64,000 nt of DNA from an uncultured Bacteroidales bacterium (GCA_963802185.1 CAWDHU010000015.1:657781-721780); one strand, 5' to 3'. Positions 13,058 to 49,015 are shown, counted from the stretch's first letter. The notes: generated from the sequence alone by a model not told the origin. Numbers and translations: made by a program.

Positions 13058-14416
13058 CTAAAAGATCAAACTAAACACAGTTTCCTTTCCCGGAACCGAC
13101 CGTACCTGAAGACTTCCACCATGAAGCCGCATAATTTGTCTGGAAAGGCTCAAACCAATACCTGAGCCGTTTTCTCTGGTGGTAAAGAACGGAACAAAAA
13201 TCTGTTCCAGAATTTCATCCGGAATTCCAGGGCCATTGTCGATTACCCGGATCTCGGGGCGATGCTCAGAATTAAACCCGGCAATTACCTGGATTTTACC
13301 TTCCGGGTTCTTTTCGTTGGCTTGCAAAGCATTTTTTGTTAAATTGATAAGCACCTGCGAAATCAGGTTTTCATCAGCGAAAAGCTCCATTTCCGGAGGG
13401 TTGACGGTTACAGTCAGTTTTATTATTTCACTGTTTTCGAGCGAAGTATACAAAACTTTAATCCTTGAGATAAGTTCTTCTACCCGGAAGATTTTCTTGT
13501 CAGGTTTTGGAAGCCGGGTTAGTTTCCTGTATGACTCAACGAACAACATCAGGCCATTTCCTTGTTCTTTAATGACACTCAAGCCTCGCAGTGTAGTCTG
13601 TATGGTTGTTTCGGTTACTTCTTCCGGAAGAGCGGGTCGCCCATCGATCATGAAAAACTGGCATAGACTTTCAGAGAGTGACGTGATTGGGGCAATCGAA
13701 TTCATAATTTCGTGCATCAGTACCCGAATTAGTTTCATCCACGAATCGAATTCTTTTTCATCCAGTTCATTCCGGATATCCTGAATCGTAAGTAAAATCA
13801 ATTCATTATCCTTTGTTTTGAATGAGGTCGCCTTTAATCGATAGTTGCATAGATTCCCCGTTCACTGTAGTAACAGAAACTAATTTCTGCTGAAATGGCT
13901 GAATATTCCTGTATGGACTGAAAGAGGTTACGGTTAACTCTTTCCAGTTGATTGATGTGGGTGAGCACATCAACTCCCAACATTTTCTTTGCAGCCGAGT
14001 TGGCATGAAGTACAAATCCCTTTGTATCGAAAGTCACGATTCCTGTACCCACGTGTTCGAGCAAGGTTTGAAAATATTGTTCCTGTTGACTGCTTTCAAT
14101 CTTTAACTGCTGAATTTGTTTATTGACTTTGTTGAGGCCCTCATAGATTTCACGGATCGGTTTGTCTGTAATATTTGTTGGAAACGTAAGCATCGAGTCC
14201 TCATTTTGAACCGATTCCAGGAAATAGCTTATTTTTCGATTTGTCGAATTCAGATAAATGACCAGGTTGAAAATCACAATTATGACCAGAACAATGCACA
14301 AAAAAATCAAGATTGTCCGATTGGCCGGAAGCCAGCAAAAAACCGGCGATCAGGCTAAATAAAACAATCAGTATAATCCTGAAAATGATTTGAAAATAGA
14401 AGTTTCGTCCGATCAT
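13058..14416 (-). pseudogene. Sensor histidine kinase (TM-PAS-HisKA-HATPase), frame-disrupted
   Basis: One kinase is split over four overlapping ORFs (14416-14201, 14310-13834, 14015-13806, 13801-13058). It has an H-box [11 protein letters not shown] and a G-box DNGPGI...GSGIGLSL. One shift maps to an A7 run at 14300-14306. The start overlaps the RR stop (ATGA). Confidence 0.75.
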
Positions 14417-15777
14417 TGTCCCGATTTTTTTATCTTGTTATAAAGTGTCTGCCTTGTAATTCCAAGCTGGTCAGCGGCAGCGCTAAGGTTTCCATTGTTT
14501 TTTTCAATGGCAAGATTGATCATCCGTTTTTCCATTTCCTCAAGGGTAAGTTCTGTTTCGTTTGTTCTATCCGAAAAAACCTGCTTCATGAAAAAATCAT
14601 CGGCTTTCAAGACATTTCCTTCACTCAAGATGACAGCTTTCTCAATGGTATGCTGCAGTTCGCGGATATTTCCGGGCCACGAATATTTGAGCAGTTTATC
14701 CTGAGCCTGCTGGTTGATTTTCAGACTGGGTTTGCTGTATTTTGAGGAATACTTCTTCAGGAAAAAATCGGTCAGCACCAGTATGTCGTTTCCGCGTTCG
14801 CGCAGTGGCGGAACTTCAATCTGTATGGTGTTGATCCGGTATAGCAGGTCCTCGCGGAATAATCCTTCGTGTACCATGCTTTCCAGTTTTTTATTGGTGG
14901 CGCAAATCAGCCTGATGTCAATCGGGATGGTTTGATTGGAACCGATTCGTGAAATCTGTCGGTTCTGGATAGCAGCCAGTAGTTTTGCCTGAAGATGAAA
15001 AGAAAGATTGCCAATCTCATCCAAAAAAAGACTGCCTTTATCGGCAACTTCAAATTTTCCGGGTCGGTTTTCGCGGGCATCGGTAAACGCGCCCTTCACG
15101 TGACCAAATAATTCGCTTTCAAACAAGGTTTCGGCGATGGCACCCATGTCAACACTTACTAATACTTCATGCGAACGTTCAGACAATCGGTGAATCTCGT
15201 GGGCAATCAATTCTTTCCCGGTTCCGTTCTCTCCGGTAATCAGTACATTGGCATCGGTTTTAGCCACTTTCCGCACCAGATTCAGCATCTGCATCAGTTG
15301 CGGTGACGAGCCAACAATAAATTTTTGTTCGCGGTTTATTTCCGTTTTCAGTCCCTTCTCTTTTTCCTTCAGCTGGCTCACTTCCTTCTTCGACCAGTTG
15401 AGCTGAAGGGCTGATTTCAGGGTTGCCAGTAATTTGTTATTGTCCCAGGGTTTCAGGAAAAAATCGGTTGCCCCCATCTTCAATGCTTTCACGGTCAACT
15501 CAATATCGCCAAAAGCGGTAATCATGACAACCGAAATCTCAGGATTTGATTCTTTGATTCGTCCAAGCCAATAAATACCTTCATTGCCGGTATTTATTCC
15601 TGCATTAAAATTCATGTCGAGAATAACCAGGTTATATTCTTTCTTCCGCAGTTCTGTCGGAATCCGATTGGGATCGGAAAGCGTAGTGACGGTTTGAAAT
15701 TCAGGAGTCAGGAAAATCTCCAATGCACTTAAAATACTCTTGTTGTCGTCAACAATCAGAATGTTTCCTTTTGCCAT
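14413..15777 (-). CDS. Sigma-54-dependent response regulator (REC-AAA+-Fis HTH, NtrC family)
   Basis: Receiver domain (IVDDN...ILDMNF), Walker A GENGTGKE, sigma-54 contact loop GAFTDA, and a C-terminal HTH AADQLGITRQTLYNKIKK. It is intact at 454 aa. Confidence 0.9.
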   Translation of the reverse strand: MAKGNILIVDDNKSILSALEIFLTPEFQTVTTLSDPNRIPTELRKKEYNLVILDMNFNAGINTGNEGIYWLGRIKESNPEISVVMITAFGDIELTVKALKMGATDFFLKPWDNNKLLATLKSALQLNWSKKEVSQLKEKEKGLKTEINREQKFIVGSSPQLMQMLNLVRKVAKTDANVLITGENGTGKELIAHEIHRLSERSHEVLVSVDMGAIAETLFESELFGHVKGAFTDARENRPGKFEVADKGSLFLDEIGNLSFHLQAKLLAAIQNRQISRIGSNQTIPIDIRLICATNKKLESMVHEGLFREDLLYRINTIQIEVPPLRERGNDILVLTDFFLKKYSSKYSKPSLKINQQAQDKLLKYSWPGNIRELQHTIEKAVILSEGNVLKADDFFMKQVFSDRTNETELTLEEMEKRMINLAIEKNNGNLSAAADQLGITRQTLYNKIKKSGQ

Positions 15778-15917
15778 TTTTTTGATTTAAAGGCTAATCT
15801 GATACGAAAAGCCGGGTTTCTATCAGGCGATTTTAGTTTTTTGACTTTTTAGAGTATTCAAAGGTAATTGGCTTTCTCTCCAAAATCAATAGAGTGTCAA
15901 ATCTTTATACAAACCAT

Positions 15918-15934
15918 TGTCAATTATTTTAACT
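15918..15934 (+). promoter_or_regulatory. Candidate UAS half-palindrome (TGTCAA-N5-TTAACT) for the adjacent RR
   Basis: It resembles TGTCAA-N5-TTGACA at 24588 and sits 54 nt upstream of the -24/-12 motif. Extra TGTCAA/TTGAC half-sites occur at 15895 and 15964. Confidence 0.45.
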
Positions 15935-15988
15935 CAGGCAAAGTCGTTGGCATTCTAAGTTGTTGACTGACAATATGTTTACGATTTT

Positions 15989-16004
15989 GGCATTATTCTG
16001 GCAC
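15989..16004 (+). promoter_or_regulatory. Sigma-54 (-24/-12) promoter of the exporter operon
   Basis: TGGCATTATTCTGGCA has GG and GC at the spacing of the consensus TGGCACG-N4-TTGCW. Confidence 0.6.
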
Positions 16005-16179
16005 ATTCTTTTCAAATATGCAGAAGAATGAAACGAACGCTTGATTTTTGCAAGGGAACGCGGTTATGGGAGTGAGCCCAAAGGAAGATGGAATAGGAAG
16101 AACGAGGGCCGGAATCCGAAGAAAATATTTGAATAACGCATTTCGGGGCCGGAATTGTAGCTTCAAATTTTTTTACGTG

Positions 16180-17438
16180 ATGGGAATGGATAGAATCTTA
16201 GAAAAGAAAAAAGGCCTGAGACCAAGACAAATCATCTGGATAGCCGGAGGATTGGCATTCGCCTTTTTGTTGTACAAAGTAATTTTTGCTGAAACCGGCC
16301 CAACCTTCAGGGCTGAAAAAGACAAGCTAACCATCAGTACAGTGGAAGACGGCTTGTTTAACGACTACATCACAGTAATTGGCCAGGTTGAACCAATCAC
16401 TACTATTTATCTGGATGCTATCGAAAGTGGGCAGATTCAGGAACGTTTCATCGAAGAAGGATCGATGGTTCAGAAAGGCGACGTGATTCTTCGCCTCGAA
16501 AACCGCCAGTTGTATCAAACCATCCTGAACAGTGAAGCTGCTCTGGCCGAAAAGGAAAACTACCTGCGAAATACGCGCATCAGTTTCGAAACAGAGTTGA
16601 TACAGTCGCGCAAAAATATACTTGACAGCCGGTACCGCCTGAACCGTAAAAAACGTTCGTTCGAGCAGAACAAAGCTCTTTTCGACGAACAGCTGATTTC
16701 GAAAGAAGATTATCTGCAGGCCAAAGAAGATTACGAATATGAAGAGAATATGCTCGAAATCAATAAAGTGAAAGCCAAAAACGATTCACTGATCCGGTTG
16801 ACCTCGATGCAATCACTGGAAACCGACCTGGTAAAAATGCGTCAGATGTTGGTGCTGGTACGCGAACGACTCGATAACCTGAACGTGAAAGCTCCGGTTA
16901 ACGGTCAGCTTGGGAATGCTTGAATGCCGAAATCGGACAGCGAGTCAATGAAGGCCAGCGCATTGGACAAATTAACGTACTCGATAATTTTAAAATCAAT
17001 GCCCTGATTGATGAACATTACATCGACCGCGTGGTTCGGGACCTTCCGGCTACTTTAGACCGCAATGGGACCAATTTCAACCTGAAAGTCAGGAAAGTAT
17101 ATCCTGAAGTGCGCAATGGTCAATTTAAAATCGATGTGGTATTTGATGGCACAACACCCGATAATATCCGCACCGGCCAAAGCTACCACATCAAGCTTGA
17201 ACTGGGCGAATCGGGCAAAGCAGTATTACTGCCACGAGGCGGATTCTTCCAAAGTACCGGGGGTCAATGGGTGTTTGTGCTGAACGAAGACGGAACCGAG
17301 GCAACCAAACGCAATATCAGGATCGGCAAACAAAATCCACAGTATTACGAAGTACTTGAAGGCCTCAAAGCCGGTGAACAAGTCATCACTTCAGGGTACG
17401 AAATGTTTGGAACGAACGACAGGATTGTGTTGAAGTAG
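16180..17438 (+). pseudogene. HlyD/MacA-type periplasmic adaptor subunit, one frameshift near 16915-16925
   Basis: ORFs 16048..16923 and 16920..17438 together form one adaptor: TM anchor, coiled coil, and a C-terminal beta domain (PVNGQLGN / NAEIGQRVNEGQRIGQI). The likely start is MGMDRILEKKKG at 16180. Confidence 0.75.
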
Positions 17439-17591
17439 CAGAAAAGACAATGGGCAGAGAGTTCATAACTTGAATCCGGTAGTAGTAATGATAAGATAAA
17501 ACTTTGTATATTATTTTCATAACTTAAATACATTTAGCAAACATTAATTTGTAATTTTAACGAGATAAAACTTCTAATAAAAATAAAAACA

Positions 17592-18291
17592 ATGATCAGA
17601 ACAGTAAATTTAAACAAAGTGTTCCGCACCGAAGAGATTGAAACCAGTGCGTTGAACGAGGTGAACCTTCACATACAAAAGGGCGAATTTGTAGCCATCA
17701 TGGGACCTTCGGGTTGCGGCAAATCAACTTTACTAAATATTATCGGCCTGTTGGACAATCCAACTTCAGGTGAAGTATTATTTCGACAGTCAGGAAGTAG
17801 GCGATTTTAAAGAACGCAACCGCACTTTGCTCCGAAAAGGCAATATTGGCTTCGTGTTCCAGAGTTTTAACCTGATCGATGAGCGTAACGTGTATGAAAA
17901 TGTGGAACTTCCGCTCATCTACCTGAAATTGAGCGCTAAAGAGCGCAAGGAAATGGTCGAAAAAGTGCTGGAACGTATGAAAATAAGTCACCGGAAGAAA
18001 CACTTCCCGCAACAATTATCCGGAGGACAGCAGCAGCGTGTGGCCATTGCGCGTGCAGTGGTTGCCAATCCAAAACTGATTCTGGCCGATGAGCCAACCG
18101 GAAACCTCGATTCGAAAAACGGTCTGGAAGTGATGAAACTGCTCACGGAACTCAACCGCGAAGGAACCACCATCGTGATGGTGACACACTCCATGCACGA
18201 TTCAGAATTTGCACACCGGGTGGTGAATCTGTTCGACGGGCAAATTATTACTGAGGAAGTGAAAAAGCAGATGGGAGAAATGCTGGTCTAA
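17592..18291 (+). pseudogene. ABC transporter ATP-binding protein (MacB/LolD type), one frameshift near 17768-17772
   Basis: Walker [10 protein letters not shown] lies in ORF 17592..17810. The signature LSGGQQQRVAIARA and Walker B LILADEPTGNLD lie in ORF 17770..18291. Confidence 0.8.
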
Positions 18292-18362
18292 ATAGTCTTG
18301 AATGAACATTATACGTGATTAACTGAAGCCCAGGATTTTGAAAACCCAAACGATATCAGTCC

Positions 18363-20727
18363 ATGCAAAACATATTTAAATCAACTTACCGGAATTTCAT
18401 CAGGAAACCAACCACCAACCTTATCAACCTGATTGGGCTGGCAGTGAGTTTAGCCTTGGTTATCGTATTGTCGGTTTATTCGTACAGCGAACTGACCACC
18501 GACAATTACCATAAGAACGGCGATCGGGTTTATCTTTTCGCCGATATGAATGGTCAATTGCATATGCCTGCAATATTAAAAGACCAGATCGATCTGAATA
18601 TTCCGGAAGTCGAATCAACCGTAAGGATGGCCAGCACATGGGAAACTCCTGTATTCCAGGTCGGAGATCGTGAACCGATAACTTCGGATCTTGTTTTTGC
18701 AGACGAGGATTTCTTCCAACTATTCACCTACCGACCGGTTGAAGGCAATCTCGAAACTTCGTTGAAAGAACCCATGACCATTGTTCTTACCAAAACTCTT
18801 GGCCAAAAAACTTTTTGGAAACGAACCAGCACTGGGCAAAACGGTGAAGCTGAACAACGATAAAGAACTAACAGTTTCAGCAGTTATTAATGAGCCTGAA
18901 GCCAATTCAAGCCTGTCTTTCAGCGCGTTAACCTCAATTGCCACGCGCAAAATTGTTCTTCCCACTGATGGCGAGTTTACTGATTGGGGATGGTGCAGTT
19001 TCCTGACATTCACACTTTTAAAAGAAGGAACTAACCCGGATGAAACTGCGAAAAAGATCATCGCTCTTTTCCCGAAGAACGATCAGGAGAAATACTCTAA
19101 ATTGAAACTGAATCCATTTGGGAAAATCTATTTTTCCAAATTTGCACTTGGTGGAACCAATTATCTGCATTGTGGCGACAAACGAAAAGTAATGATCCTG
19201 ATGATGGTGGCAGCACTGGTACTGATGATTGCATTGGTCAATTTTATTAACATTTCTTCTTCACAATGGATGGAGAAAATCAGGCAAACAGGTGTTCAAA
19301 AGTGTTTGGCGCTGGTAATGTGAACATCCTCATAAATTCACTTTCCGAAGCCTTTATTCTGTTTTTGATGTCGCTTTTTTTTGCAATCCTGATCGTTCGG
19401 GCTCTATTCCCATTCATCAGTAGCATTACCGGAATTCAGTTCAATATTCAATTGCTTTACAAGCCTTCTTTCCTGATGGTTTCCATTGCCGTAACTTTTA
19501 TCCTTAGTATGGTTTTCAGTATTATTCCAGCCTTACGCATCTCCTCGTCGAAAGCAGTTGACAACCTGAAGAAAACAGTTGCAAGGGGTTCTAAAAATTC
19601 CTTTTCCCAGGGACTTCTGGTGACTACCCAATTTGTAATTGCTATTGTGCTAATCGCTTTTACCATTTTGGTTCAAAAGCAGGTTAACTTTGGAAGTAGC
19701 AAACTGGGATTTTATCAGAAAAACATAATAGGTATCAAGTTAACACCACAGTTGAACGGGAAAAAAGAGGTGCTCAAAAAGTTGCTACAGGACAAACCTA
19801 CTGTTACAGAAATCTCGTTTACTCAATATTACCCGGGAAACATGCTTTCGAACTGGAGAACAAATCAGGAAATAAACGGCGTGAGAAAAGAACTCAGTTT
19901 TGATACATTTAATGCTGATGCCAACTTCTGTTCAATGATAGGATTACAACTTATACAAGGACGCTTTTTCTTAGAAGACCTGGCTACCGACCAGCATAAA
20001 ATGATTGTGAATGAAAGCTTCCTTCGGGAAAACAAAATAGACAATCCGATTGGCGCTAAATTCATGATGGGCTTTGGTATGGATGCAGGCCTTTCCGAAA
20101 TAATCGGTGTAGTAAAAGATTTTCATTACAAAGCGGTCAACCAGCCCATCATAGCGTTGGTCATACAAAATGAACCGGATGCATCCTATTGCCTTGTCAA
20201 ACTGCAAACCAACGATTTCACTTCACTGCATACAACCATTCAGGATATCAAAAAAGTAACCAAAGACCTTTCTCCTTCTTTTCCGGTCGAAATCACCTTT
20301 TTCGATCAGGCTATTGAGAATATGTATAAATCGGAATTACAATTTCAACACACCTTTTCACTGTTTGCCGGAATGCGCTATTGTGATCTGTTGCATGGGA
20401 ATTTTCGCCATGTCGCTGTTTGCTTGTCAGCGCCGGATCAAGGAGATCGGCATTCGTAAGGTAAACGGAGCCCGTATTTCAGAAGTAATGACAATGCTGA
20501 ACCGCGACTTTGTGAAATGGGTTGCCATTGCCTTTGTAGTTGCCACGCCCATTGCCTGGTTCATCATGAACAAATGGCTCGAAAGTTTTGCCTACAAAAC
20601 TGACTTGAGTTGGTGGATTTTTGCCCTGGCTGGAATACTGGCCCTGGGAATTGCGCTATTGACGGTGAGCTGGCAAAGCTGGAAAGCAGCGACAAGGAAC
20701 CCGGTGGAAGTATTGAGGTATGAGTAG
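18363..20727 (+). pseudogene. MacB-like FtsX-domain ABC permease (~788 aa), three frameshifts
   Basis: Four overlapping ORFs (18363-18863, 18781-19323, 19266-20459, 20314-20727) read as one permease. The shifts are near 18800, 19298-19301 (an A4 run) and 20367-20382. The C-terminal FtsX motif is EIGIRKVNGA. Confidence 0.8.
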
Positions 20728-20750
20728 CCATTCAAATTAAAAATGAAATT

Positions 20751-23139
20751 ATGAAGAAAGTTAGAAATATTTTCAGGCATCTTATTCGCCGGGGATTGAC
20801 CACTTCGTTTGTGTTGATCAGTTTTACGTTGGCCTTTAGCTGTTGCATTTTAGTGTACCTTTTTGTTGCCGATGAGTTGTCATTCGATAAGCACAATGCA
20901 AATTTTGCCCATATCTACCGACTAAACCTACAGTCGAAAGACAAAACTTATAAGAGTTGTTCGTTCCCGGCTGTTTTCGAGGAAAAGTTCATCAAAATTC
21001 CGGGTATTGAAAAGTACGCAAGGCTTCAGTCCTATATGGGGGAAAATTTTATTTCGATTGATAATACAACTTTTACAGCAACCAGTTTCTTGTTTGCCGA
21101 TCCAGAAATCCTTGATATTCTTCAATTTGATTTCCTTATGGGCAACCCTAAAGAAGCTTTGGCGAAGCCGTTGAATGTTATAATCAGCCAATCGACTGCG
21201 CAAAAATATTTTGGCAATACCAATCCAATAGGAAAGATAATCAGGCAGGACGATCAGGATTTTACGGTTTCAGCAGTTGTGAAAGACCTGCCCAGGCAAT
21301 CGCATTTTACCATGAATTTCCTTGCCCCTGTGGCGAGCTATCAGATAAAAAACGACGACTTGCTTACAAAATGGTACATACAAGCTTTCCGTTTCTATTT
21401 GCTGATCCCGGATGGGGTAAACAAGAAGGAAGTAGAAACCCAATTAGCCAATCTTTATGCCGAAGGGAATGGAATTGACAAAAACAAGCGGGAGTTTGAT
21501 ATGTACCTGGAGCCTTTAAGTGATATTCATCTGAAGTCGGTTGGCACACGTTGGGATAACGCCATTAAAGGCGATATTCAAGTAGTTTATGGATTGTGTA
21601 TCGTTGCGTTGCTCATTCTGGGAATAGCCATTGCCAACTACATCAATATGCTGACCGCCGATTGCCGGCGAAAAGCAAAAGAAACCAGCATACAACGGGT
21701 GAATGGAGCTTCAGGATATAACATTATTGCCGATCAGGTTCTTGAAACATCGATTTTCCTTCTGTTTGCCTTTCTGTTGTCAATGGTATTAACTTTTCAG
21801 ATGTTGCCGGTTGTCAATAACTTAAGCGGCAAATTATTGTCGGTTAATTGGTCGGTGCTGATACCCGGCCTGGCTTTGCTTGCCACGTCCATCATTTTAT
21901 CTGCCATCTATCCAATACTATTCCTGAATTCCATAAAACCTGTTGAAGCCCTTAAAAACCAGATCAACATCATCAAGGTTAAAAGTCAGCAAAAACAGCA
22001 ATGGTTAAGAGGCGCTCTGGTTACCTTCCAATTGGCCATAGCCACCCTGTTAATTGCTTCAACTATTGTGATCAACAACCAGCTACAGTTGGTTATGAAT
22101 GCAAAAACAGGCTTCGATAAAGAAAATACCCTTATCGTTTACAACCCGTATACTGAAGGTATGAATGAACGTTATGATCTGTTCAGGCAAAAACTGAGCA
22201 ATGTGCCCATGATAAAAAGTATCGGTGTTGCACAAAATGCCCCTGGCAATACCATCAATAATTTTTCTCCTGCCTGGTTGCCTGATCAGAAAAATCAAAA
22301 AGCTGACCTTGGCCAAATTTCCGTTGACTACGATTTTCTGCAAACAATAGGTGCAAAATTTGTGGCTGGCCGCAATTTCGACATCAATGTTGCAAGCGAT
22401 AAAACAACAGGGATGATCATTAACCAATCAGCCGTTAGAGCGCTCAATTTAACCGATCCTATAGGTAAAAAAATTGTCGTCCAGAACAATGTTGATACTC
22501 CCAACAATGAACTTGAGGTAATTGGAGTGATCGAAGACATGCAATATTTCACCCTGCGTGAAGCTTCGAAACCAGTAATGTACTATATCAAGGATTGGGG
22601 CAGGTATGAAATTGCCTTGAAACTGGGCAGCGGTAATTATTCTGCAACATTAAAGCAGATTGAAACCATCTGGAAAGAAATAGCTCCTCAATGGCCAATT
22701 CAGCTACCAGTTTTTGGATGAAAGAATCAACAATAATTACAGATCGGAAATAAACACGGGAAAAATAATAACCGGGCTGTCAGGCATTTCCATTTTCCTT
22801 TCCATTCTGGGAATATTGGGTATGATCCTGATTACCATACAGCAACGCACCAAGGAGATTGGAATCCGCAAGGTGAATGGTGCCCAAATCTCCGAAGTAT
22901 TGATGATGCTGAACAAAGACTTTGTAAAATGGGTAGCCATTGCTTTTGTAATTGCCACGCCCATTGCGTGGTATGCTATGCACAAATGGCTCGAAAACTT
23001 TGCCTACAAAACTGAATTGAGCTGGTGGATTTTTGCCTTGGCAGGATTAATTGCATTGGGAATTTCATTGCTTACTGTGAGTTGGCAAAGTTGGAAAGCG
23101 GCCACAAGGAATCCGGTAGAGGCGTTGAGATATGAATAA
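20751..23139 (+). pseudogene. MacB-like FtsX-domain ABC permease paralog (~796 aa), one frameshift near 22701-22705
   Basis: ORFs 20751..22721 and 22714..23139 join as ...WPIQ/YQFLDERINNNY. The C-terminus is almost identical to that of the preceding paralog (EIGIRKVNGAQISEV...AATRNPVEALRYE). Confidence 0.8.
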
Positions 23140-23278
23140 CCGAGTATTTAATTTCAATGATGAAGTAATTTTAATATGTTTTCAGGTATTCATCAACCGA
23201 TCGAACATGAATTCGCATGAGTTGCCACGAAAGGCTTAACTCGATTCCGGAAAATACTCTTTTCTCGATTTAATGAAA

Positions 23279-23305
23279 GGCTGTCATTTTGTGACGGTCT
23301 TTTTC
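23279..23305 (+). terminator. Rho-independent terminator of the exporter operon
   Basis: ggctgtca-ttttg-tgacggtc followed by ttttt. Confidence 0.65.
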
Positions 23306-23369
23306 CTTTTCACGCTCCTTCTGCAACTTGATTCTTTCTTTAGCCAGCTGTAAATAGTGTCAGGGTAAT

Positions 23370-23386
23370 TGCCAATTTATTTGACA
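23370..23386 (+). promoter_or_regulatory. Candidate UAS (TGCCAA-N5-TTGACA)
   Basis: Imperfect palindrome located 53 nt upstream of the -24/-12 motif. Confidence 0.5.
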
Positions 23387-23439
23387 CATTCAAACCTCAG
23401 AAGATTTACAATACACTGATATTGAGCATATAAAGCTTT

Positions 23440-23455
23440 TGGCATGAATCTGGCA
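23440..23455 (+). promoter_or_regulatory. Sigma-54 (-24/-12) promoter
   Basis: TGGCATGAATCTGGCA lies 80 nt upstream of ATG 23536. Confidence 0.6.
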
Positions 23456-23535
23456 TCCAGAAATACTAAAAGACAAAATCGAAACAAAATTTAGGTTTCA
23501 AAAAAATAACTTATTTATCTTTAACACTCAAAATC

Positions 23536-24342
23536 ATGAACACAATAACCAATTATCAGGAATCAGAAAACTTAGGAACAATCAGAAAATCTCTTTTGGC
23601 ATTACTGATGATGAAAAATAAATTGATTTTTGTATTAACATTTCTGATTTCAGTAGTGATTGTGAGGATTCTTATGATCAGATACTTTATTGATATTAGT
23701 CCCATAGTTGTTGCTATAGCTTTTATATTGATTCTACGTGATAAGTTTTCGGACTTACGTTTACGGCTGTTTAATCCTTTGTCATTCATTGTAATTATAT
23801 TAATTACTTATGTTGTATTGTTTTTAACGATTTCTAATTCAGTCCTACTTTAAATTCAGTGAATTTTCGTTCATTACTGATAAAGGTACAATAATAGGAT
23901 ATTTTTTGTCTGCAATAATTATGTGGGATTTACAGAGGAAACTGCCTGGCGTGGTTATTTATTTAGCAAATTAAAAGATTTGACCTGGTTTCAAATTACG
24001 ATAATTATTAACCTGATTTGGGCAATCTGGCATATCCCATCTCATTTTAATGTCCTTGAGGGTCATATCTGGATAAGTTTTCCTTTATTTATTGTGACGT
24101 GTTTTGAGCTTGGAATCATTATGCAATATTTGAGAGTAAAGACAGATTCTGTTATTCCATGTATTCTTTTTCATGCATTATTTATATTTCCATTAATGTT
24201 GGCTGGTTTAAAAACTAAAGTTTTATATTTAGGGAGTTTTCCATACATTATTATGTTACTGTTGTTGTTGCCAATAACTATTTATTGCTATAGAGCAGGA
24301 CAAAGAATCCATGAAAAACAAAACAACAGGGCAAAACGATAG
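23536..24342 (+). pseudogene. CPBP-family (CAAX/Abi-like) intramembrane glutamic protease, two frame disruptions
   Basis: The N-terminal TM part is ORF 23536..23853 and the catalytic part is ORF 23923..24342. The catalytic part carries EExxxR (FTEETAWRG), FxxxH (AIWHIP) and a later FHALF. The linking segment reads only in another frame (KFSEFSFITDKGTIIGYFLSAII, 23852-23922). Confidence 0.65.
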
Positions 24343-24494
24343 CACAATGCTTAATTTCGCGCCAAACTAACCCCCAAAAAAGCTTTGGCTAAGCCCTTGA
24401 TGTTATCCTAAACCGACCGGCCATGAAGTCGAATGATTTGCCGCGACAGGCTCAACCCTATTCCTAGAAATAATCTGACCTCGAATTAATGAAA

Positions 24495-24522
24495 GACTGT
24501 CACTTAATGACGGTCTTTTTTT
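24495..24522 (+). terminator. Rho-independent terminator after the CPBP gene
   Basis: gactgtca-cttaa-tgacggtc followed by ttttttt. Confidence 0.65.
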
Positions 24523-24587
24523 CTTTTCACGCACCTTCTATTACTTGATTCTTTCTTTAGCCATCTGTAAAATATCACCAGGGTAAT

Positions 24588-24604
24588 TGTCAATTTATTT
24601 GACA
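24588..24604 (+). promoter_or_regulatory. Candidate UAS, perfect palindrome TGTCAA-N5-TTGACA
   Basis: tgtcaatttatttgaca lies 53 nt upstream of the -24/-12 motif. Confidence 0.55.
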
Positions 24605-24657
24605 CATTCAAACCTTAACAACTTCGCAACACACTGATAATGAAGAAATAAAATTTT

Positions 24658-24673
24658 TGGCATGAATCTGGCA
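24658..24673 (+). promoter_or_regulatory. Sigma-54 (-24/-12) promoter
   Basis: TGGCATGAATCTGGCA lies 81 nt upstream of ATG 24755. Confidence 0.6.
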
Positions 24674-24754
24674 TCCTGAAATACTACAAGACAAAATGAA
24701 AACAAACAACAGGTTTAGAAAACAAAAACATATTAATCTTAAACCCTTAAAATC

Positions 24755-27233
24755 ATGACAACAACAATCAATTATCATCAATCAGAAAACCGGGGAACAA
24801 TCAGAAAATCTCTTTTGGCATTACTGATGATAGTTTTGTTTACAACACTGGCTTTCAGTCAGAAACTTATCACAAACCGTAAGAGGCACTATACTTGATG
24901 CCGACAGTAAATTGCCGCTGATAGGCGCTACAGTTATAATACCTGGTACCGACCCGTTAATTGGTGCGACAACTGATTTAGACGGTAAGTTCAGACTGGA
25001 AAACATACCAATAGGCAGAATTACAATCCAATTGTCCTACATGGGTTACGATCCTGTAACAATTCCAAACATTGAAGTGAATTCGGGTAAGGAGGTCGTT
25101 TTAAATCAAAGCATGCAGGAATCGGCAATAAAACTGGATGAAATTGTAGTATCGGGCCGAAAAAAAGGAGAAGCAATAAACGACATGTCTCAGTTAAGTT
25201 TACATTCCATTACACTTGAAGAAACTAAACGTTTTACCGGGGGAATGGACGATCCTGCCCGCGTAGTTTCCAGTTTTGCAGGAGTAGCCAGTACGCCCAA
25301 TGGCAGCAGCGATATTATAGTACGCGGAAATTCACCCAAATACATGCAATGGCGTTTGGAAGGAGCAGAAATTTCGAGTCCTTACCATATGGATGATCAA
25401 AATGCTTCGTTTGGAGCCCTTACAGCCCTGAATAATAATTTATTAGCCACCTCCGATTTTTATACAGGGGCTTTTTCGTCAGAATATGGCGATGCATTAT
25501 CGTGTGTTTACGATGTAAAACTCCGGTCGGGAAATAACGAAAAGTTTGAAGCAACCGGCGGGATTGGCTTAATGGGTACAGAACTTACCCTTGAAGGTCC
25601 GCTTAAAAAGGGATATGCAGGCTCATGCCTGTTTAATTACAGGTACTCTACAATTTCGCTGATTAAAGAGCTGGGGCTGGTGGATGTGCCCGGAGGTGTG
25701 AATTACCAGGATGCAACCTTTAAAGTAGTTCTGCCTACTAAAAAAACAGGTACTTTTTCCATCTATGGGTTGGGTGGTTTAAGTGGTGTTTCAATGGAGA
25801 ATATGGGGCCAACAGGCCTGTCAACACCAGGCAGACCAGTCACAAACGCTCTTGTCAGCCGAGATTTTTACAAGGCAAATTATCTGGCTAATCTTGGAAT
25901 GAACCATGTTTTATCGCTTAACGAAAAAAGCTTTATTAAAACGTCATTTAATTATTCGGGAACTGGTATGGACGATGATATTTATGAGAAGGATACAATA
26001 AAAACATATAACAATATTGATGAATTTACTGGTGATTCCATTTCTCCCAGAACACAAATGCTTCAAGGCAGGATTGTGAATTCAGCAATCAGGGGGGCAA
26101 CTACTTACAGCAATAAAATCGATGAAAAAAATAAAATTCAAATAGGTACAAAATACACGCTTTATAACTTCAATTACAATCAAAACATCTATAGCAGTGA
26201 GGTAGATTCCATGGTTAACGTAAATGACTTTAAAAATAATTTAAGTACAATAAATAATTTTATAAACTGGAAACACAGCTTTAATGATAAAATGGTTGTT
26301 GTGGCAGGTATACATAACATGAATGTTTTAAACAAAAATATAAGCACGATTGAACCAAGATTAAGTATTAACTGGAATATGAATGAAACCAATTCGCTGC
26401 ATGCAGGATACGGTATGCACAGCACCACAGAAAGTATACATAATTATTTTACAAAAATCCCGCAAGCAGATGGCAGTTTTATTGAGCCAAATAAAAATCT
26501 CGGATTGTTAAAAGCCCATCATTATGTATTGGGCTATGAAAAACGCTTCACGGAAAATTTAGTGGGGAAAATTGAGGTTTACTACCAGTCGCTTTACAAT
26601 TTGCCGGTCGAAAATAACGACAGCAGTTATTATTGCACCATTAACGAGGGCATCGATTTTAAATATGTTGAACTGGTTAATAAAGGCACAGGTAAAAACT
26701 ACGGCGTGGAAATGTCCATCGAACGGTTTTTTGATAATAATTTCTACTTTTTGCTAAATGGATCGTTATTCGATTCGAAATACAAATCCTTGGAAGGAGT
26801 GTGGCGAAATACCCGGTATAATAACAAATATATTGTAAATATTTTAGGTGGAAAAGAGTTTAAAAATCTTGGTAAAAAACAAAACCAGACCCTGGCAGTA
26901 AATACGAAAATATTCTTCGAAGGTGGCCAACGGTATATTCCGCTTCTGAGAGATGCCCAGGGAAATGTAGCTGTTGAACCCGAAAACGACAGATATTTTG
27001 ACTATAGCAAAGCATATAATGATAAACTTGACAACATATTTTACCTGAATTTATCGGTCAGCTACAAGTTAAATAAACCCAGGGCTACACATGAAATTTT
27101 TCTGGATCTGATGAACCTTACAAACAATCAGGCCAGAATGACTGAATATTATGATGAGAGCAAACCTGACAAAGTTGGCTATACTACTTCATTTGGATTT
27201 TTCCCAAACTTAATGTACCGGGTATATTTTTAA
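24755..27233 (+). pseudogene. TonB-dependent receptor (CarboxypepD_reg-like domain, plug, barrel) with a frameshift just after the signal peptide (~24866-24870)
   Basis: ATG 24755 encodes MTTTINYHQSENRGTIRKSLLALLMIVLFTTLAFSQKL and then stops. The main ORF (listed as 24912..27233) is open further upstream as SQTVRGTILDADSKLPLIGATVII. The C-terminus NLMYRVYF is typical of a TBDR. Confidence 0.8.
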
Positions 27234-32375: not shown

Positions 32376-33318
32376 ATGCAAAAGATGAAAGCAGTTATTT
32401 GCACCAAATACGGACCACCGGAAGTCCTGCATTTAAGAGAAGTTGAAAAACCTGTTCCAAAAGATAATGAAGTACTGATAAAAGTAATTGCAACAACAGT
32501 ACACATTGGCGACACTAAGATCCGGCGATTAGAGCCCGGTATGGGACCCGTCAAAGATTTCTTTTTCAAGCCCATGATGCGGTTCATGTTGGGTTTCAAA
32601 GGACCAAGAAATAAAATACTTGGAATGGAACTGGCCGGAGACGTGGAAGAAGTAGGCAAAGACGTAACGCAGTTTAAGCCAGGCGATCCCGTTTTTGCAT
32701 CCACTGAATTCAGAATGGGAGCGTATGTCGAGTATTGCTGTATTCCTGAAAACGGGATTCTTGGCAATAAAACCAACCAACATGACTTACGAGGAAGCCG
32801 CACCGGTTTCCAATGGTGGATTAACAGCCTTGATAAGTCTTCGGAAAGCAAATATTCAGAAGGGGCAAAAGGTACTGATCTATGGTGCTTCCGGTAGTGT
32901 TGGTACTTATGCAGTGCAGATTGCCAAACACTTTGGGGCAGAGGTTACAGGAGTATGCAGCACTGCGAATCTGGAAATGGTTAAATCCCTTGGTGCCGAT
33001 AAGCTTATCGATTACACCCGGGAAGATTTTACACAAAGCAGTGATACTTATGACGTTATTTTTGATGCTGTAGCCAAGATTGCATCTTCAAAACGTAAGA
33101 AAGCTTTGAAAAAGTCTGGAATCTATCTAAGCGCTCATGATTTGTCAGGCAATATAAAGCTAAAGGTTAAAGACCTGATTTATCTCAAAGAACTCTGCGA
33201 GGCTGGAAAGCTAAAAACAGTCATTGACAAACGCTACCCAATGGAGCAGATAGTTGAGGCTCACAGGTATGTTGACAAAGGACACAAAAAAGGAAATGTT
33301 GTGATCACAATAGAATAA
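32376..33318 (+). pseudogene. Second MDR quinone oxidoreductase paralog, frameshift near 32760-32766
   Basis: ORF 32376..32897 (N-terminal half) and ORF 32695..33318 (C-terminal half, [17 protein letters not shown]...[20 protein letters not shown]) align end to end with 30802..31731. Confidence 0.8.
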
Positions 33319-47560: not shown

Positions 47561-48952
47561 ATGAAACCAGACCGGTTTTGCAATCTATTGGTTGTTGATG
47601 ATGACACAGATGTTCTGTTCACAGCAAAGCTTTTATTCAAAGGATTGTTTGGCAAGGTCGATACTCTGGCACGCCCTTCATTTATTCCTGATTGCCTTCG
47701 CGATTGCAAGTATGATCTGATCCTTCTCGATATGAATTTTACCCGTGGAATTACCTCGGGAAAAGAAGGACTCGAATGGCTGGCGAAAATATTGGAGATT
47801 GATCCTGAGGTCCGCGTAATCGTAACCACTGCTTACGGGGAAATAGATTTAGCTGTTCAGGCTATGAAACTTGGTGCGGTTGATTTTATCATCAAACCCT
47901 GGAATAAAGCACAACTGATTGCTACTATCAGGAATGTATTTGCAAAGGACAAAATAATCAGTGTATCCAATGGTCATAAAAGCAAACCCACTGATTCCCG
48001 TCATCATGCAAATAGCAGATACCCCGAAATTTTTACACGTTCGGCTAGCATGAAGCAGGTTATTGAAACCATAAAAACTGTTGCATCCACAGATGCCAAT
48101 ATACTGATATTAGGTGAAAATGGTACTGGTAAGGAGCTGGTAGCCTGGTCGTTGCATTCTCAATCATTACGAAAGCAACAAGCATTTGTGCATGTTGACT
48201 TAGGTGCTATTCCCGAAACTCTGTTCGAAGCTGAGTTATTCGGGCATATCCGAGGTGCTTTTACAGATGCAAAAGAAGACAGAACCGGAAGATTTGAAGC
48301 AGCTTCGGGTGGAACATTATTTCTTGACGAGATCGGTAACCTTAGTATGCCAATGCAGGCTAAACTTCTGACTGCTGTTCAAAACAGGGAAATTATTAAA
48401 ATTGGAACCAATCATCCTGTAAATATAAATGTGAGGTTGATTTCAGCAACCAATATGCCTTTATATCAAATGGCGGAATCATTTGAATTCAGGCAGGACT
48501 TGCTTTATCGCCTGAACACTGTTGAGATTATATTGCCTCCACTGAGAGACCGTAAAGAAGATATTGAACTCTTAGCAGACTTTTTTATAAAACAATTTTC
48601 AGAACAGTATAGTAAACAAGGAATTAGCATAAGTGAAGATGCCCTTGAAGTTATGAAACTATACAACTGGCCTGGGAATATCCGTGAGCTGGCTCACGTA
48701 ATCGAAAGGGCAATCATACTTAATAAAAGCGGAATCCTTAAGCCTGAAGATTTTACTTTGAAAGTAAAAGCACAAGCAGTACTGGTTCTTGATGAACCAA
48801 TCGTCAGCATAGGAGATTATGAGAGAAAAGTTATTTCAAATGCATTAAGTAAATATAACGGAAACCTTTCCAGGGCTGCTGACGATTTAGGAGTTGCCAG
48901 GACCACATTATACAGGAAGATATCACGGTTCGGACCGGAATTCTGGAAATAA
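47561..48952 (+). CDS. Sigma-54-dependent response regulator (REC-AAA+-Fis HTH)
   Basis: VVDDD...LLDMNF receiver, Walker A GENGTGKE, GAFTDA loop, and HTH AADDLGVARTTLYRKI. Confidence 0.9.
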   Translation: MKPDRFCNLLVVDDDTDVLFTAKLLFKGLFGKVDTLARPSFIPDCLRDCKYDLILLDMNFTRGITSGKEGLEWLAKILEIDPEVRVIVTTAYGEIDLAVQAMKLGAVDFIIKPWNKAQLIATIRNVFAKDKIISVSNGHKSKPTDSRHHANSRYPEIFTRSASMKQVIETIKTVASTDANILILGENGTGKELVAWSLHSQSLRKQQAFVHVDLGAIPETLFEAELFGHIRGAFTDAKEDRTGRFEAASGGTLFLDEIGNLSMPMQAKLLTAVQNREIIKIGTNHPVNINVRLISATNMPLYQMAESFEFRQDLLYRLNTVEIILPPLRDRKEDIELLADFFIKQFSEQYSKQGISISEDALEVMKLYNWPGNIRELAHVIERAIILNKSGILKPEDFTLKVKAQAVLVLDEPIVSIGDYERKVISNALSKYNGNLSRAADDLGVARTTLYRKISRFGPEFWK

Positions 48953-49015
48953 CCAATTCGAAAAATACTCAATGAGTTTTAATTTTAGATCATACTATTT
49001 ATAAAAACAGGAATT

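What the first reader, a model, noticed from the sequence alone, without database searches (positions are those of the whole stretch)
23195..24831. A ~420 bp portable cassette (terminator, UAS, sigma-54 promoter, 5'UTR, first 26 codons) is duplicated onto two unrelated genes
Segments 23195-23612 and 24411-24831 align along their full length. Each contains a hairpin terminator (23279-23305 and 24495-24522), the palindrome, the -24/-12 motif and an ~80 nt leader. Each also encodes nearly the same N-terminal peptide: MNTITNYQESENLGTIRKSLLALLMM versus MTTTINYHQSENRGTIRKSLLALLMI. Homology stops abruptly at codon ~26. After that point one copy continues as a CPBP protease and the other as a TonB-dependent receptor. 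This looks like promoter-plus-leader capture that recruits a new gene into the regulon. The result is a chimeric N-terminus in which a TBDR-type extended signal peptide is fused to a polytopic inner-membrane protease.
Basis: seen in the sequence. Interest (0 to 1): 0.7.

Follow-up and report, generated by a model that had tools for sequence, protein, structure and literature searches.

The report
Duplicated sigma-54 promoter-leader captures protease gene
A 420-base control region of an outer-membrane receptor gene (terminator, activator site, sigma-54 promoter, leader, first 25 codons) was copied long ago onto the start codon of an unrelated membrane-protease gene; this is a clear but fairly ordinary case of bacterial promoter capture.

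Summary
The repeat is real. Window 23195-23612 and 24411-24831 align over 421 nt at 82% identity (E 1e-115), and there are only two copies in the window. Each copy has a terminator hairpin, a TGTCAA-N5-TTGACA palindrome exactly 70 nt upstream of an invariant TGGCATGAATCTGGCATCC sigma-54 promoter, an A-rich leader of about 80 nt, and an ATG plus 25 shared codons.

Relatives show the direction of capture. The receptor (TBDR-like) lineage owns the N-terminal peptide. CPBP orthologs elsewhere start at MKNKLIF, which is codon 26 here, exactly at the junction. The CPBP-linked copies form one clade, so this was a single old duplication. It recurs in independent assemblies, so it is not an assembly artefact.

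The locus is polymorphic among relatives:
- Some lack CPBP.
- Some have lost copy A's promoter and terminator, or nearly all of copy A, while keeping CPBP intact.
- In others the same cassette is fused at different points to a small OMP or a lipoprotein.

The cassette is therefore a reused regulatory module, not a discrete mobile element. Only part of the signal peptide was transferred, and it appears dispensable. In this assembly both genes carry 1-nt frameshifts. Sigma-54 dependence and regulon membership are inferred, not shown. Verdict: new member of a known kind, moderate interest.

The parts
23195..23612 (+). Cassette copy A, upstream of and fused to CPBP. The weaker left edge starts at 23181.
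   Evidence: 82% identical to copy B over 421 nt, E 1e-115.
24411..24831 (+). Cassette copy B, the native 5' region of the TBDR-like gene. The weaker left edge starts at 24397.
   Evidence: It is 85.5% identical to the single cassette of relative L001, against 77% for copy A.
23275..23303 (+). Intrinsic-terminator-like hairpin plus T-run in copy A, downstream of the FtsX permease gene.
24491..24519 (+). Intrinsic-terminator-like hairpin plus T-run in copy B, downstream of CPBP.
23370..23386 (+). Candidate enhancer (UAS) palindrome TGCCAA-N5-TTGACA in copy A. Its start lies 70 nt upstream of the start of the -24 element.
   Evidence: This block is conserved in 12 cassette copies.
24588..24604 (+). 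Candidate enhancer (UAS) palindrome TGTCAA-N5-TTGACA in copy B (perfect). Its start lies 70 nt upstream of the start of the -24 element.
23440..23458 (+). Sigma-54-type -24/-12 promoter in copy A: TGGCATGAATCTGGCATCC, with GG-N10-GC spacing.
   Evidence: Identical in all 11 cassette copies that retain the promoter (it is deleted in L011 copy A).
24658..24676 (+). Sigma-54-type -24/-12 promoter in copy B.
23459..23535 (+). A-rich leader of copy A, ending in the invariant AAAATCATGA start context.
   Evidence: no conserved RNA structure; no Rfam hit.
24677..24754 (+). A-rich leader of copy B.
23536..24342 (+). CPBP/Rce1-like intramembrane protease gene. Codons 1-25 come from the cassette. The native start codon is at 23611 (M26). 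The frame is broken at about 23836 (+A) and about 23926 (-T) in this assembly.
   Evidence: Pfam PF02517, E 1e-16, on the frame-corrected translation. Ortholog N-termini. L025 homology starts at 23611. Indels.
24755..27233 (+). TBDR-like outer-membrane protein gene (CarboxypepD_reg-like domain, weak Plug, barrel). The signal peptide is MTTTINYHQSENRGTIRKSLLALLMIVLFTTLAFSQ. There is a +1 indel at about 24869 in this assembly.
15988..16003 (+). Third sigma-54-type promoter, TGGCATTATTCTGGCA, in front of the HlyD/ABC/FtsX operon. TGTCAA-type half-palindromes lie at 15895-15911 and 15918-15934, the latter also 70 nt upstream.
14413..15777 (-). NtrC-type sigma-54-dependent response regulator, divergent from the operon. 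It is the most likely activator of all three promoters. This is an inference.
   Evidence: Pfam Sigma54_activat E 1e-66, Response_reg, HTH_8. NCBIfam.
13058..14310 (-). Sensor histidine kinase, in two ORF fragments, partner of the response regulator.
   Evidence: HATPase_c E 1e-24. ORFs.
16048..23139 (+). HlyD-like adaptor, ABC ATPase and two MacB/FtsX-type permease genes, with several frameshifts. The operon ends just before copy A.
24372..24407 (+). Relic of an FtsX/MacB_PCD coding fragment just upstream of, and running into, copy B. The left breakpoint of the duplication lies at the right-hand edge of this relic.
   Evidence: 86% identity to 21146-21181. The L017 version is 83% identical over 52 nt.

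Best explanation
The 5' regulatory region of a TBDR-like outer-membrane protein gene was duplicated once, long ago. The duplicated segment holds a decayed FtsX fragment, an intrinsic terminator, an activator-binding palindrome, a sigma-54 -24/-12 promoter, an A-rich leader, the ATG and 25 codons of the signal peptide. Its right end was joined by illegitimate recombination to the native start codon of an accessory CPBP (Rce1/Abi-type) intramembrane protease gene.

The product is FtsX - [copy A] - CPBP - [copy B] - TBDR. Each gene is insulated by its own terminator and has its own copy of the enhancer and promoter. The promoters are most probably fired by the adjacent NtrC-type two-component system, which also drives the HlyD/ABC/FtsX operon from a third promoter with the same 70-nt enhancer-promoter geometry.

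Translation of CPBP probably starts at the cassette ATG and adds a 25-residue, non-functional N-terminal tail in front of the native Met. The tail and copy A's promoter are dispensable.

Shown: the repeat, its anatomy, the donor/recipient polarity, the single origin, and the polymorphism among relatives. Inferred: sigma-54 and response-regulator dependence, terminator function, and which start codon is used.
For: - Repeat: 421 nt, 82% identity, E 1e-115, two copies only.
- Anatomy.
- The promoter 19-mer is identical in all 11 cassette copies that retain it (deleted in L011 copy A) and the palindrome block is conserved across 12 copies, within sequence otherwise 70-88% identical.
- A sigma-54 activator lies next door. 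A third promoter has the same 70-nt spacing.
- Polarity: the TBDR clade carries the extension in loci that have one cassette and no CPBP (L001, L016, L023).
- Most of the 35 CPBP homologs with an intact N-terminus start at MKNK/MKKK; four of the 35 (P0121-P0123, P0150) carry the extension.
- L025 has the CPBP gene at 90% nt identity in an unrelated context, with homology starting exactly at 23611.
- Single origin: the CPBP-linked copies of four genomes cluster together in an NJ tree.
- Not an artefact: the same layout appears in JGI, Logan, ENA/megahit and MAG assemblies.
- Arbitrary breakpoints: the left end lies at the edge of an FtsX relic and the right end inside the signal peptide.
- Dispensability: L011 lost the terminator, 42 nt including the promoter, and the reading frame of the extension. 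L024 keeps only about 36 nt of copy A. Both retain an intact CPBP ORF.
- The cassette ATG is a real start: in L015 a lipoprotein with a classical lipobox begins exactly there.
Against: - No expression data exist. Sigma-54 dependence, terminator function and the regulator assignment rest on motifs and proximity.
- A second sigma-54 response regulator/kinase pair lies at 47561-50431.
- rpoN was not found in the window, and the rest of the genome was not searched.
- In this assembly both CPBP and TBDR are frameshifted. The locus may be decaying here rather than functioning.
- The NJ tree has no support values and rests on about 290 columns.
- Copy A is slightly closer to copy B of the same genome (83%) than to its orthologs (79-81.5%). 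Gene conversion may therefore blur the history.
- pN/pS of about 1 for the shared codons in both gene sets gives no evidence that the peptide itself is under selection.
Confidence: 0.75

Rival explanations
1. The cassette is a recombination docking site. Because it flanks accessory genes as direct repeats, homologous recombination between copies excises or inserts whole gene modules and swaps them between strains. This would create a 'plug-in expression slot' at the end of the FtsX operon. The duplication would then be maintained because it enables this turnover.
For: Close relatives show CPBP presence/absence (L001, L016, L023 vs window, L003, L011, L021, L024). The same cassette is fused to a 229-aa small OMP (L003), a lipoprotein (L015) and a truncated remnant followed by small OMPs (L017). 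A window-specific shared substitution (TTG GCA in both copies, TTA in all other copies) suggests conversion between copies.
Against: The fusion junctions differ: ATG+10, codon 25, about codon 31, about codon 45. That points to separate illegitimate events, not exchange at one site. The single cassettes of CPBP-less relatives are copy-B-like along their whole length, not A/B hybrids. No circular or excised form was observed.
Confidence: 0.2
2. The shared first 25 codons, and especially the invariant blocks AATCAGAAAAC and AACAATCAGAAAATCT, form a cis-acting nucleotide-level element. This could be a translation enhancer or a target of an RNA or protein regulator. It would have been co-duplicated because expression from this leader needs it.
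For: The two blocks contain an 11-nt direct repeat, CAATCAGAAAA, read in different frames. They are almost invariant in 11 copies, including synonymous positions, while pN/pS of the region is about 1.
Against: L015 uses the cassette only up to ATG+10. L024 and L011 dispense with or disrupt the region. No conserved RNA structure or covariation was found and there is no Rfam match. There are few independent sequences.
Confidence: 0.12
3. In this genome the whole locus is a decaying pseudogene cluster. The duplicated cassette would then be a fossil with no present function.
For: Window-specific 1-nt indels break the kinase, HlyD, ABC ATPase, both FtsX genes, CPBP (twice) and TBDR.
Against: The indels are mostly single +A or -T events at sites where three or four relatives agree. 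A related MAG (L011) carries its own, different frameshifts, while short-read contigs are intact. That pattern is typical of long-read consensus errors. The promoter and palindrome are perfectly preserved.
Confidence: 0.25
4. The cassette is a discrete mobile element, such as a MITE or an IS-derived outward promoter, that inserts upstream of genes.
For: The same roughly 300-420 nt lies in front of four unrelated gene families.
Against: No terminal inverted repeats or target duplications were found. Left and right boundaries vary. There are only two copies in 64 kb. A related 835-kb contig/genome holds one exact copy of the 19-mer, and no other Bacteroidales genome among 185,579 species representatives holds any.
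Confidence: 0.04
5. The repeat is an assembly artefact, either a mis-joined or a duplicated region.
For: The window shows signs of consensus errors.
Against: The copies differ at 18% of positions. The arrangement is reproduced in at least five independent assemblies from different samples and pipelines.
Confidence: 0.01

Closest known systems
Putative mobile promoters / promoter propagation (Matus-Garcia, Nijveen & van Passel 2012, PMC3488235)
   Same: Highly similar upstream regions (at least 80% identity over at least 50 nt) lie in front of non-homologous genes with non-homologous upstream neighbours. This is read as reuse of a ready-made promoter for transcriptional rewiring.
   Different: Here the unit is much longer (about 420 nt) and carries a terminator, an enhancer and a sigma-54 promoter. 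It runs 25 codons into the coding region, creating a chimeric N-terminus. The donor gene and the polarity can be identified from relatives.
Promoter capture by duplication junctions, e.g. the rnk-citT module of Cit+ E. coli in the long-term evolution experiment (own knowledge, not checked here)
   Same: A duplication creates a new junction that puts a gene under another gene's active promoter, while the original promoter-gene pair is kept.
   Different: That case is a recent tandem duplication selected in the laboratory with a sigma-70 promoter. Here the event is old (copies 18% diverged), natural, in frame, and involves an activator-dependent promoter.
Horizontal regulatory switching of intergenic regions (Oren et al. 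2014, own knowledge; cited in PMC5890482)
   Same: Orthologous genes sit behind different, non-homologous regulatory regions in related strains. TBDR orthologs lie behind a LytS/LytTR system in L007 and L028, and behind the sigma-54 cassette here.
   Different: That work concerns replacement of one gene's upstream region between strains, not within-locus duplication onto a second gene.
Conserved 5' expression/signal-peptide blocks of variable surface protein gene families, e.g. Mycoplasma vlp/vsp (own knowledge)
   Same: Promoter, leader and signal-peptide coding sequence are shared by genes whose mature parts differ.
   Different: Those are paralogous families used for phase and antigenic variation. 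Here the downstream genes are unrelated in fold and compartment, and no switching machinery is seen.

Membership tests
Putative mobile promoter (PMP) as defined in PMC3488235 | Upstream regions align over more than 50 nt at 80% identity or more | tested here: met
   82% over 421 nt. The promoter-plus-UTR part alone is 81.6%.
Putative mobile promoter (PMP) as defined in PMC3488235 | Downstream coding sequences are not homologous | tested here: met
   Rce1-like versus CarbopepD_reg_2/Plug. No similarity beyond codon 26. The first 25 codons are shared, which is outside the strict definition.
Putative mobile promoter (PMP) as defined in PMC3488235 | Upstream coding sequences are not homologous | tested here: met
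   FtsX permease versus CPBP.
Sigma-54-dependent, enhancer-activated promoter | -24 GG and -12 GC elements with canonical spacing (TGGCAC-N5-TTGCW) | tested here: met
   TGGCATGAATCTGGCA: correct GG-N10-GC spacing, two departures from the TGGCAC-N5-TTGCW consensus (C to T in the -24 element, T to G in the -12 element). Identical in all 11 cassette copies that retain the promoter.
Sigma-54-dependent, enhancer-activated promoter | Upstream activator-binding palindrome and a bEBP encoded nearby | tested here: met
   TGTCAA-N5-TTGACA lies 70 nt upstream at all three promoters. A response regulator with a Sigma54_activat domain, E 1e-66, is at 14413-15777. Binding is inferred.
Sigma-54-dependent, enhancer-activated promoter | Transcription depends on RpoN and the activator | not testable with these tools
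   No expression data. rpoN was not found among the window proteins that were scanned with Pfam; not all ORFs were scanned.
CPBP / Rce1-like intramembrane protease (PF02517) | Profile match above the curated threshold | tested here: met
   61.2 bits against a cut-off of 22.4 on the frame-corrected translation. The intact ortholog P0121 also matches CPBP-type NCBIfam models weakly.
CPBP / Rce1-like intramembrane protease (PF02517) | Catalytic motifs EExxxR, FxxxH, HxxxN/D | tested here: inconclusive
   EETAWR and WAIWH are present. In the third motif the His is present (FHALF) but the N/D is not evident. This was read from the sequence.
CPBP / Rce1-like intramembrane protease (PF02517) | Intact reading frame in this window | tested here: not met
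   Two compensating 1-nt indels at about 23836 and about 23926 relative to four relatives. They may be consensus errors.
TonB-dependent receptor | Plug domain and 22-strand barrel profiles | tested here: inconclusive
   Plug scores 19.4 bits, below the 23.9 cut-off. No PF00593 hit on this protein. Some orthologs carry precomputed PF07715/PF00593. The only PDB hit is the N-terminal domain of a TonB-dependent receptor, 6ytc_A, E 2e-6.
TonB-dependent receptor | N-terminal CarboxypepD_reg-like domain typical of Bacteroidota receptors | tested here: met
   PF13715, E 1e-18.
Mobile element carrying an outward promoter (MITE/IS) | Terminal inverted repeats, target-site duplication, many dispersed copies | tested here: not met
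   No flanking inverted repeats. Two copies in the window. One exact 19-mer in the only related representative genome. Junctions vary.
Extended signal peptide region (ESPR, PF13018) of type V secreted proteins | Profile match in the N-terminal extension | tested here: not met
   No such Pfam hit at E up to 0.01 for either the TBDR or the chimeric CPBP.

The most novel reading that the evidence does not exclude
The sigma-54 promoter-leader cassette at the end of the FtsX operon works as a general 'expression slot'. Diverse envelope genes (TBDR, CPBP protease, small OMPs, lipoprotein) are repeatedly plugged in behind copies of it and exchanged between strains by recombination at the cassette. 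This would give one two-component system a rapidly changeable output set, without any dedicated integrase.
Probability: 0.15. Interest if true: 0.6.

Novelty: new member of a known kind. Interest (0 to 1): 0.35.

Why it matters
This is a well-resolved natural example of how a newly placed accessory gene acquires activator-dependent regulation in one step. A whole control region was copied: terminator, enhancer, sigma-54 promoter, leader and start codon. Related genomes preserve the 'before' state, the 'after' state and several 'decay' states.

It shows that such captures can run into coding sequence and leave a tolerated, probably useless N-terminal tail. That matters for start-codon annotation and for signal-peptide prediction.

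It also marks the 3' end of these Bacteroidales sigma-54/FtsX loci as a hot spot of envelope-gene turnover. It does not reveal a new mechanism.

Tried and rejected
- Rfam scan of 23100-24950 at E up to 1: no hit.
- Consensus folding of nine leader sequences: -2.6 kcal/mol and no covariation, so no structured RNA element.
- My first motif patterns had the wrong spacing and found nothing. They were corrected.
- Look-up of the window's own truncated TBDR product (P0003): not on record, so the source record could not be identified.
- The 42-aa profile search and the 36-aa phmmer search of 1.84 billion representatives returned only short remnant ORFs and no further gene families.
- Scan of genome representatives with the promoter 19-mer: one relevant genome with one copy, plus four chance hits. 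A genome-wide repeat family is therefore not supported. The source genome itself was not in that set.
- P0028 contig: no DNA available. The near-identity of its TBDR signal peptide to a small-OMP signal peptide could therefore not be checked at the nucleotide level.
- pN/pS on the 24 shared codons was about 1 in both sets. The sample is too small to separate peptide-level from nucleotide-level constraint.
- Assembly artefact, mobile element and shared ancestral N-terminus were each considered and rejected (see rivals).


Full report
**Observation**

BLASTN of each against the whole 64-kb window returns one reciprocal hit, 23195-23612 vs 24411-24831: 421 columns, 81.9% identity, E 1e-115. No further copies were found. 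The repeat finder finds four colinear blocks from 23181/24397 to 23612/24831, and MAFFT shows that homology stops abruptly after ...CTGATGAT.

Each copy contains the following features.
- A terminator-like hairpin with a T-run, at 23275-23303 and 24491-24519.
- The palindrome TGTCAA-N5-TTGACA. It is perfect at 24588-24604 and has one mismatch at 23370-23386.
- The 19-mer TGGCATGAATCTGGCATCC at 23440 and 24658, which fits the sigma-54 GG-N10-GC geometry.
- An A-rich leader of about 80 nt.

- In this assembly neither gene is an uninterrupted ORF. CPBP has a +A at about 23836 and a -T at about 23926. The TBDR-like gene has a +A at about 24869. Both are relative to several relatives.
- Only the n-region and about 6-8 residues of the hydrophobic core of the signal peptide are shared. 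That is too short to act as a signal peptide or a membrane helix.

**Context**

The cassette lies at the end of a sigma-54-type locus.
- An NtrC-type response regulator (14413-15777, minus strand; Sigma54_activat E 1e-66) and a fragmented histidine kinase are divergent from a HlyD-like/ABC-ATPase/two-MacB-FtsX-permease operon at 16048-23139.
- That operon has its own TGGCATTATTCTGGCA motif at 15988. A TGTCAA-type site lies at 15918, again exactly 70 nt upstream (start to start), as in both cassette copies.
- Downstream genes: CPBP matches PF02517 (61 bits on the frame-corrected translation). The other gene has a CarboxypepD_reg-like domain and a sub-threshold Plug match, and its orthologs are annotated as TonB-dependent-receptor-like.
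- A second sigma-54 regulator/kinase pair sits at 47561-50431. Assigning the cassette to the nearer regulator is therefore an inference.

**Which gene owned the N-terminus**

- Of 120 TBDR orthologs, the closest clade (P0001, P0021, P0023, P0025, P0045) begins MxTTNNYQKSENRGTIRKSLL..., followed by the rest of the signal peptide (...FTTLAFSQ).
- More distant TBDR orthologs begin MKKFISTTLMIAVFTTLAFSQ.
- Of 35 CPBP homologs, most with an intact N-terminus begin MKNKLIF.... Only four of the 35 (P0121-P0123, P0150) carry the extension in front of MKNKLIF.
- Locus L025 has the CPBP gene at 90% nucleotide identity in an unrelated neighbourhood. Its homology to the window starts exactly at 23611, the native ATG (codon 26 here).
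- Loci L001, L016 and L023 have FtsX - one cassette - TBDR and no CPBP.

The TBDR is therefore the donor and CPBP the recipient. The joint lies on CPBP's own start codon.

**Age and authenticity**

The duplicated layout recurs in independent assemblies: L002-L005 (two JGI metagenomes and two Logan runs), L011 (a Bacteroidales MAG), L021, and L024 (ENA/megahit). An alignment of 12 cassette copies shows the promoter 19-mer identical in all 11 copies that retain it (it is deleted in L011 copy A) and the palindrome block conserved across the 12, while overall identities run 70-88%. In an NJ tree the four CPBP-linked copies group together. This indicates one old duplication rather than repeated events or an assembly artefact. 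One substitution (TTG GCA) is shared only by the two window copies, and the last 38 nt before the junction are identical. This suggests some gene conversion.

**Breakpoints**

The sequence just upstream of copy B, running into it, resembles an internal FtsX/MacB_PCD coding fragment. It is 86% identical to 21146-21181, and the L017 version is 83% identical over 52 nt. The left breakpoint of the duplication therefore lies at the right-hand edge of a pseudogene relic, and the right breakpoint lies inside a signal peptide. No terminal inverted repeats or target duplications are present. These are the marks of a segmental duplication with arbitrary ends, not of a transposable unit. A scan of 185,579 species-representative genomes with the 19-mer found only one related genome, with one exact copy.

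**Turnover in relatives**

- In L003 copy B plus the entire signal peptide (homology up to window 24889) is fused to a 229-aa small outer-membrane protein instead of the TBDR.
- In L015 the cassette up to ATG+10 precedes a lipoprotein whose lipobox signal peptide starts at that ATG. This shows the cassette ATG is a working start.
- In L017 a truncated remnant ORF is followed by two small OMP genes, and P0157 is an intact 47-aa version of that remnant.
- In L011 copy A has lost its terminator and 42 nt including the promoter, and a 4-nt deletion puts the cassette ATG out of frame. The 272-codon CPBP frame is nevertheless open.
- In L024 only about 36 nt of copy A remain, directly after the FtsX stop, and CPBP starts MMKNK.

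Copy A's promoter and the N-terminal tail are therefore dispensable, and CPBP can evidently be served by read-through from the FtsX operon.

**A parallel case with a different regulator**

In lineages where the TBDR lacks the extension, it lies behind a LytS/LytTR two-component system (L007, L028). In L007 a different 104-nt upstream block is repeated three times, before CPBP, a 781-aa TBDR paralog and the 810-aa TBDR. A relic of the LytTR gene's 3' end lies before the third copy. Duplication of the control region together with gene insertion is thus a recurrent theme for this gene set, and CPBP and the TBDR travel together under two unrelated regulators.

**Function of the shared coding part**

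- pN/pS over the 24 shared codons is about 1 in both the CPBP set (1.28) and the TBDR/OMP set (0.85).
- Two blocks containing the 11-nt direct repeat CAATCAGAAAA, read in different frames, are almost invariant.
- No conserved RNA structure and no Rfam family was found.
- A nucleotide-level role is possible but unsupported, and L015, L011 and L024 argue it is not essential.

**Mechanism proposed**

The TBDR 5' region underwent a segmental duplication whose right end was joined, probably by microhomology around ATGAT, to the CPBP start codon. The result is two insulated transcription units, each with its own enhancer and sigma-54 promoter, co-regulated with the efflux/permease operon by the adjacent two-component system. 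The sequence relationships are shown. Sigma-54 dependence, activator identity, terminator efficiency and start-codon usage are inferred.

**Comparison with known systems**

The pair satisfies the operational definition of a putative mobile promoter: at least 80% identity over at least 50 nt, with non-homologous upstream and downstream genes (PMC3488235). It differs from that definition in three ways. It is much longer, it carries an activator-dependent promoter with its enhancer and terminator, and it extends in frame into the coding region. It resembles promoter capture by duplication junctions and regulatory switching of intergenic regions (own knowledge). It is not a MITE or IS element, and it is not an ESPR-type extended signal peptide (no Pfam hit).

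**Status of the frameshifts**

Window-specific single-base indels, mostly +A, occur at sites where three or four relatives agree. The related MAG L011 has different frameshifts of its own, and short-read contigs are intact. Consensus error is the likelier cause, but real decay of the locus in this genome cannot be excluded.

**Verdict**

It is overstated on the 'signal peptide fusion' and on portability as a discrete unit. This is a new member of a known kind, of moderate interest.

Noticed in passing
window 16048-27233 (indels at 19294, 20372, 22697, ~23836, ~23926, ~24869): There is an unusually dense set of window-specific 1-nt indels, mostly an extra A. They break HlyD, the ABC ATPase, both FtsX permeases, CPBP and the TBDR. 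Relatives agree with each other at these sites. The cause is probably long-read consensus error, possibly local pseudogenisation.
   Followed up: partly
window 24372-24407 vs 21146-21181: The spacer just upstream of cassette copy B is a decayed fragment of an FtsX/MacB periplasmic-domain coding sequence (PKEALAKPL...). The same relic is present in L016 and L017, where no CPBP precedes it.
   Followed up: partly
window 23560-23589 and 24779-24808: An 11-nt direct repeat, (C/G)AATCAGAAAA, occurs twice 19 nt apart inside the shared codons and is read in two different frames. It is almost invariant in 11 cassette copies, including synonymous positions.
   Followed up: partly
window 15895-16003: A third sigma-54-type promoter (TGGCATTATTCTGGCA) sits before the HlyD/ABC/FtsX operon, with two TGTCAA-type sites. 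One of them has the same 70-nt distance as in the cassette.
   Followed up: yes
window 47561-50431: A second sigma-54-dependent response regulator and histidine kinase pair is present. No matching promoter or palindrome was seen next to it.
   Followed up: no
L011 5185-5447 (inside cassette copy B of that MAG); related footprint in L023: A roughly 450-nt insertion lies between the terminator position and the UAS, containing a MITE-like element with 44-nt inverted repeats that are 98% complementary. L023 carries the flanking parts of the same insertion without the core.
   Followed up: partly
L007 194-297, 1061-1164, 3691-3794: In a lineage regulated by LytS/LytTR, a different 104-nt upstream block (78% identity) is repeated before CPBP, a 781-aa TBDR paralog and the 810-aa TBDR. 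A relic of the LytTR gene's 3' end lies before the third copy.
   Followed up: partly
L003 2851-3540 (= L002 1466-2155); L015 2287-2922; L017 (reverse strand): The same sigma-54 cassette is fused at different points to a 229-aa small OMP, to a 211-aa lipoprotein, and to a 47-codon remnant ORF (intact as P0157) upstream of two small OMP genes.
   Followed up: yes
P0028 (TBDR) vs small OMP in L017: The signal peptide MKKLTLTSLIIVMCMSLAFSQN of one TBDR ortholog is 21/22 identical to that of an unrelated small OMP (MKKITLTSLIIVMCMSLAFSQN). This hints at a second, independent sharing of a 5' region. No DNA was available to check it.
   Followed up: no
window 32376-33318: A zinc-type alcohol dehydrogenase gene appears split into two overlapping ORFs (32376-32897 and 32695-33318). 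This is probably another frameshift in the assembly.
   Followed up: no
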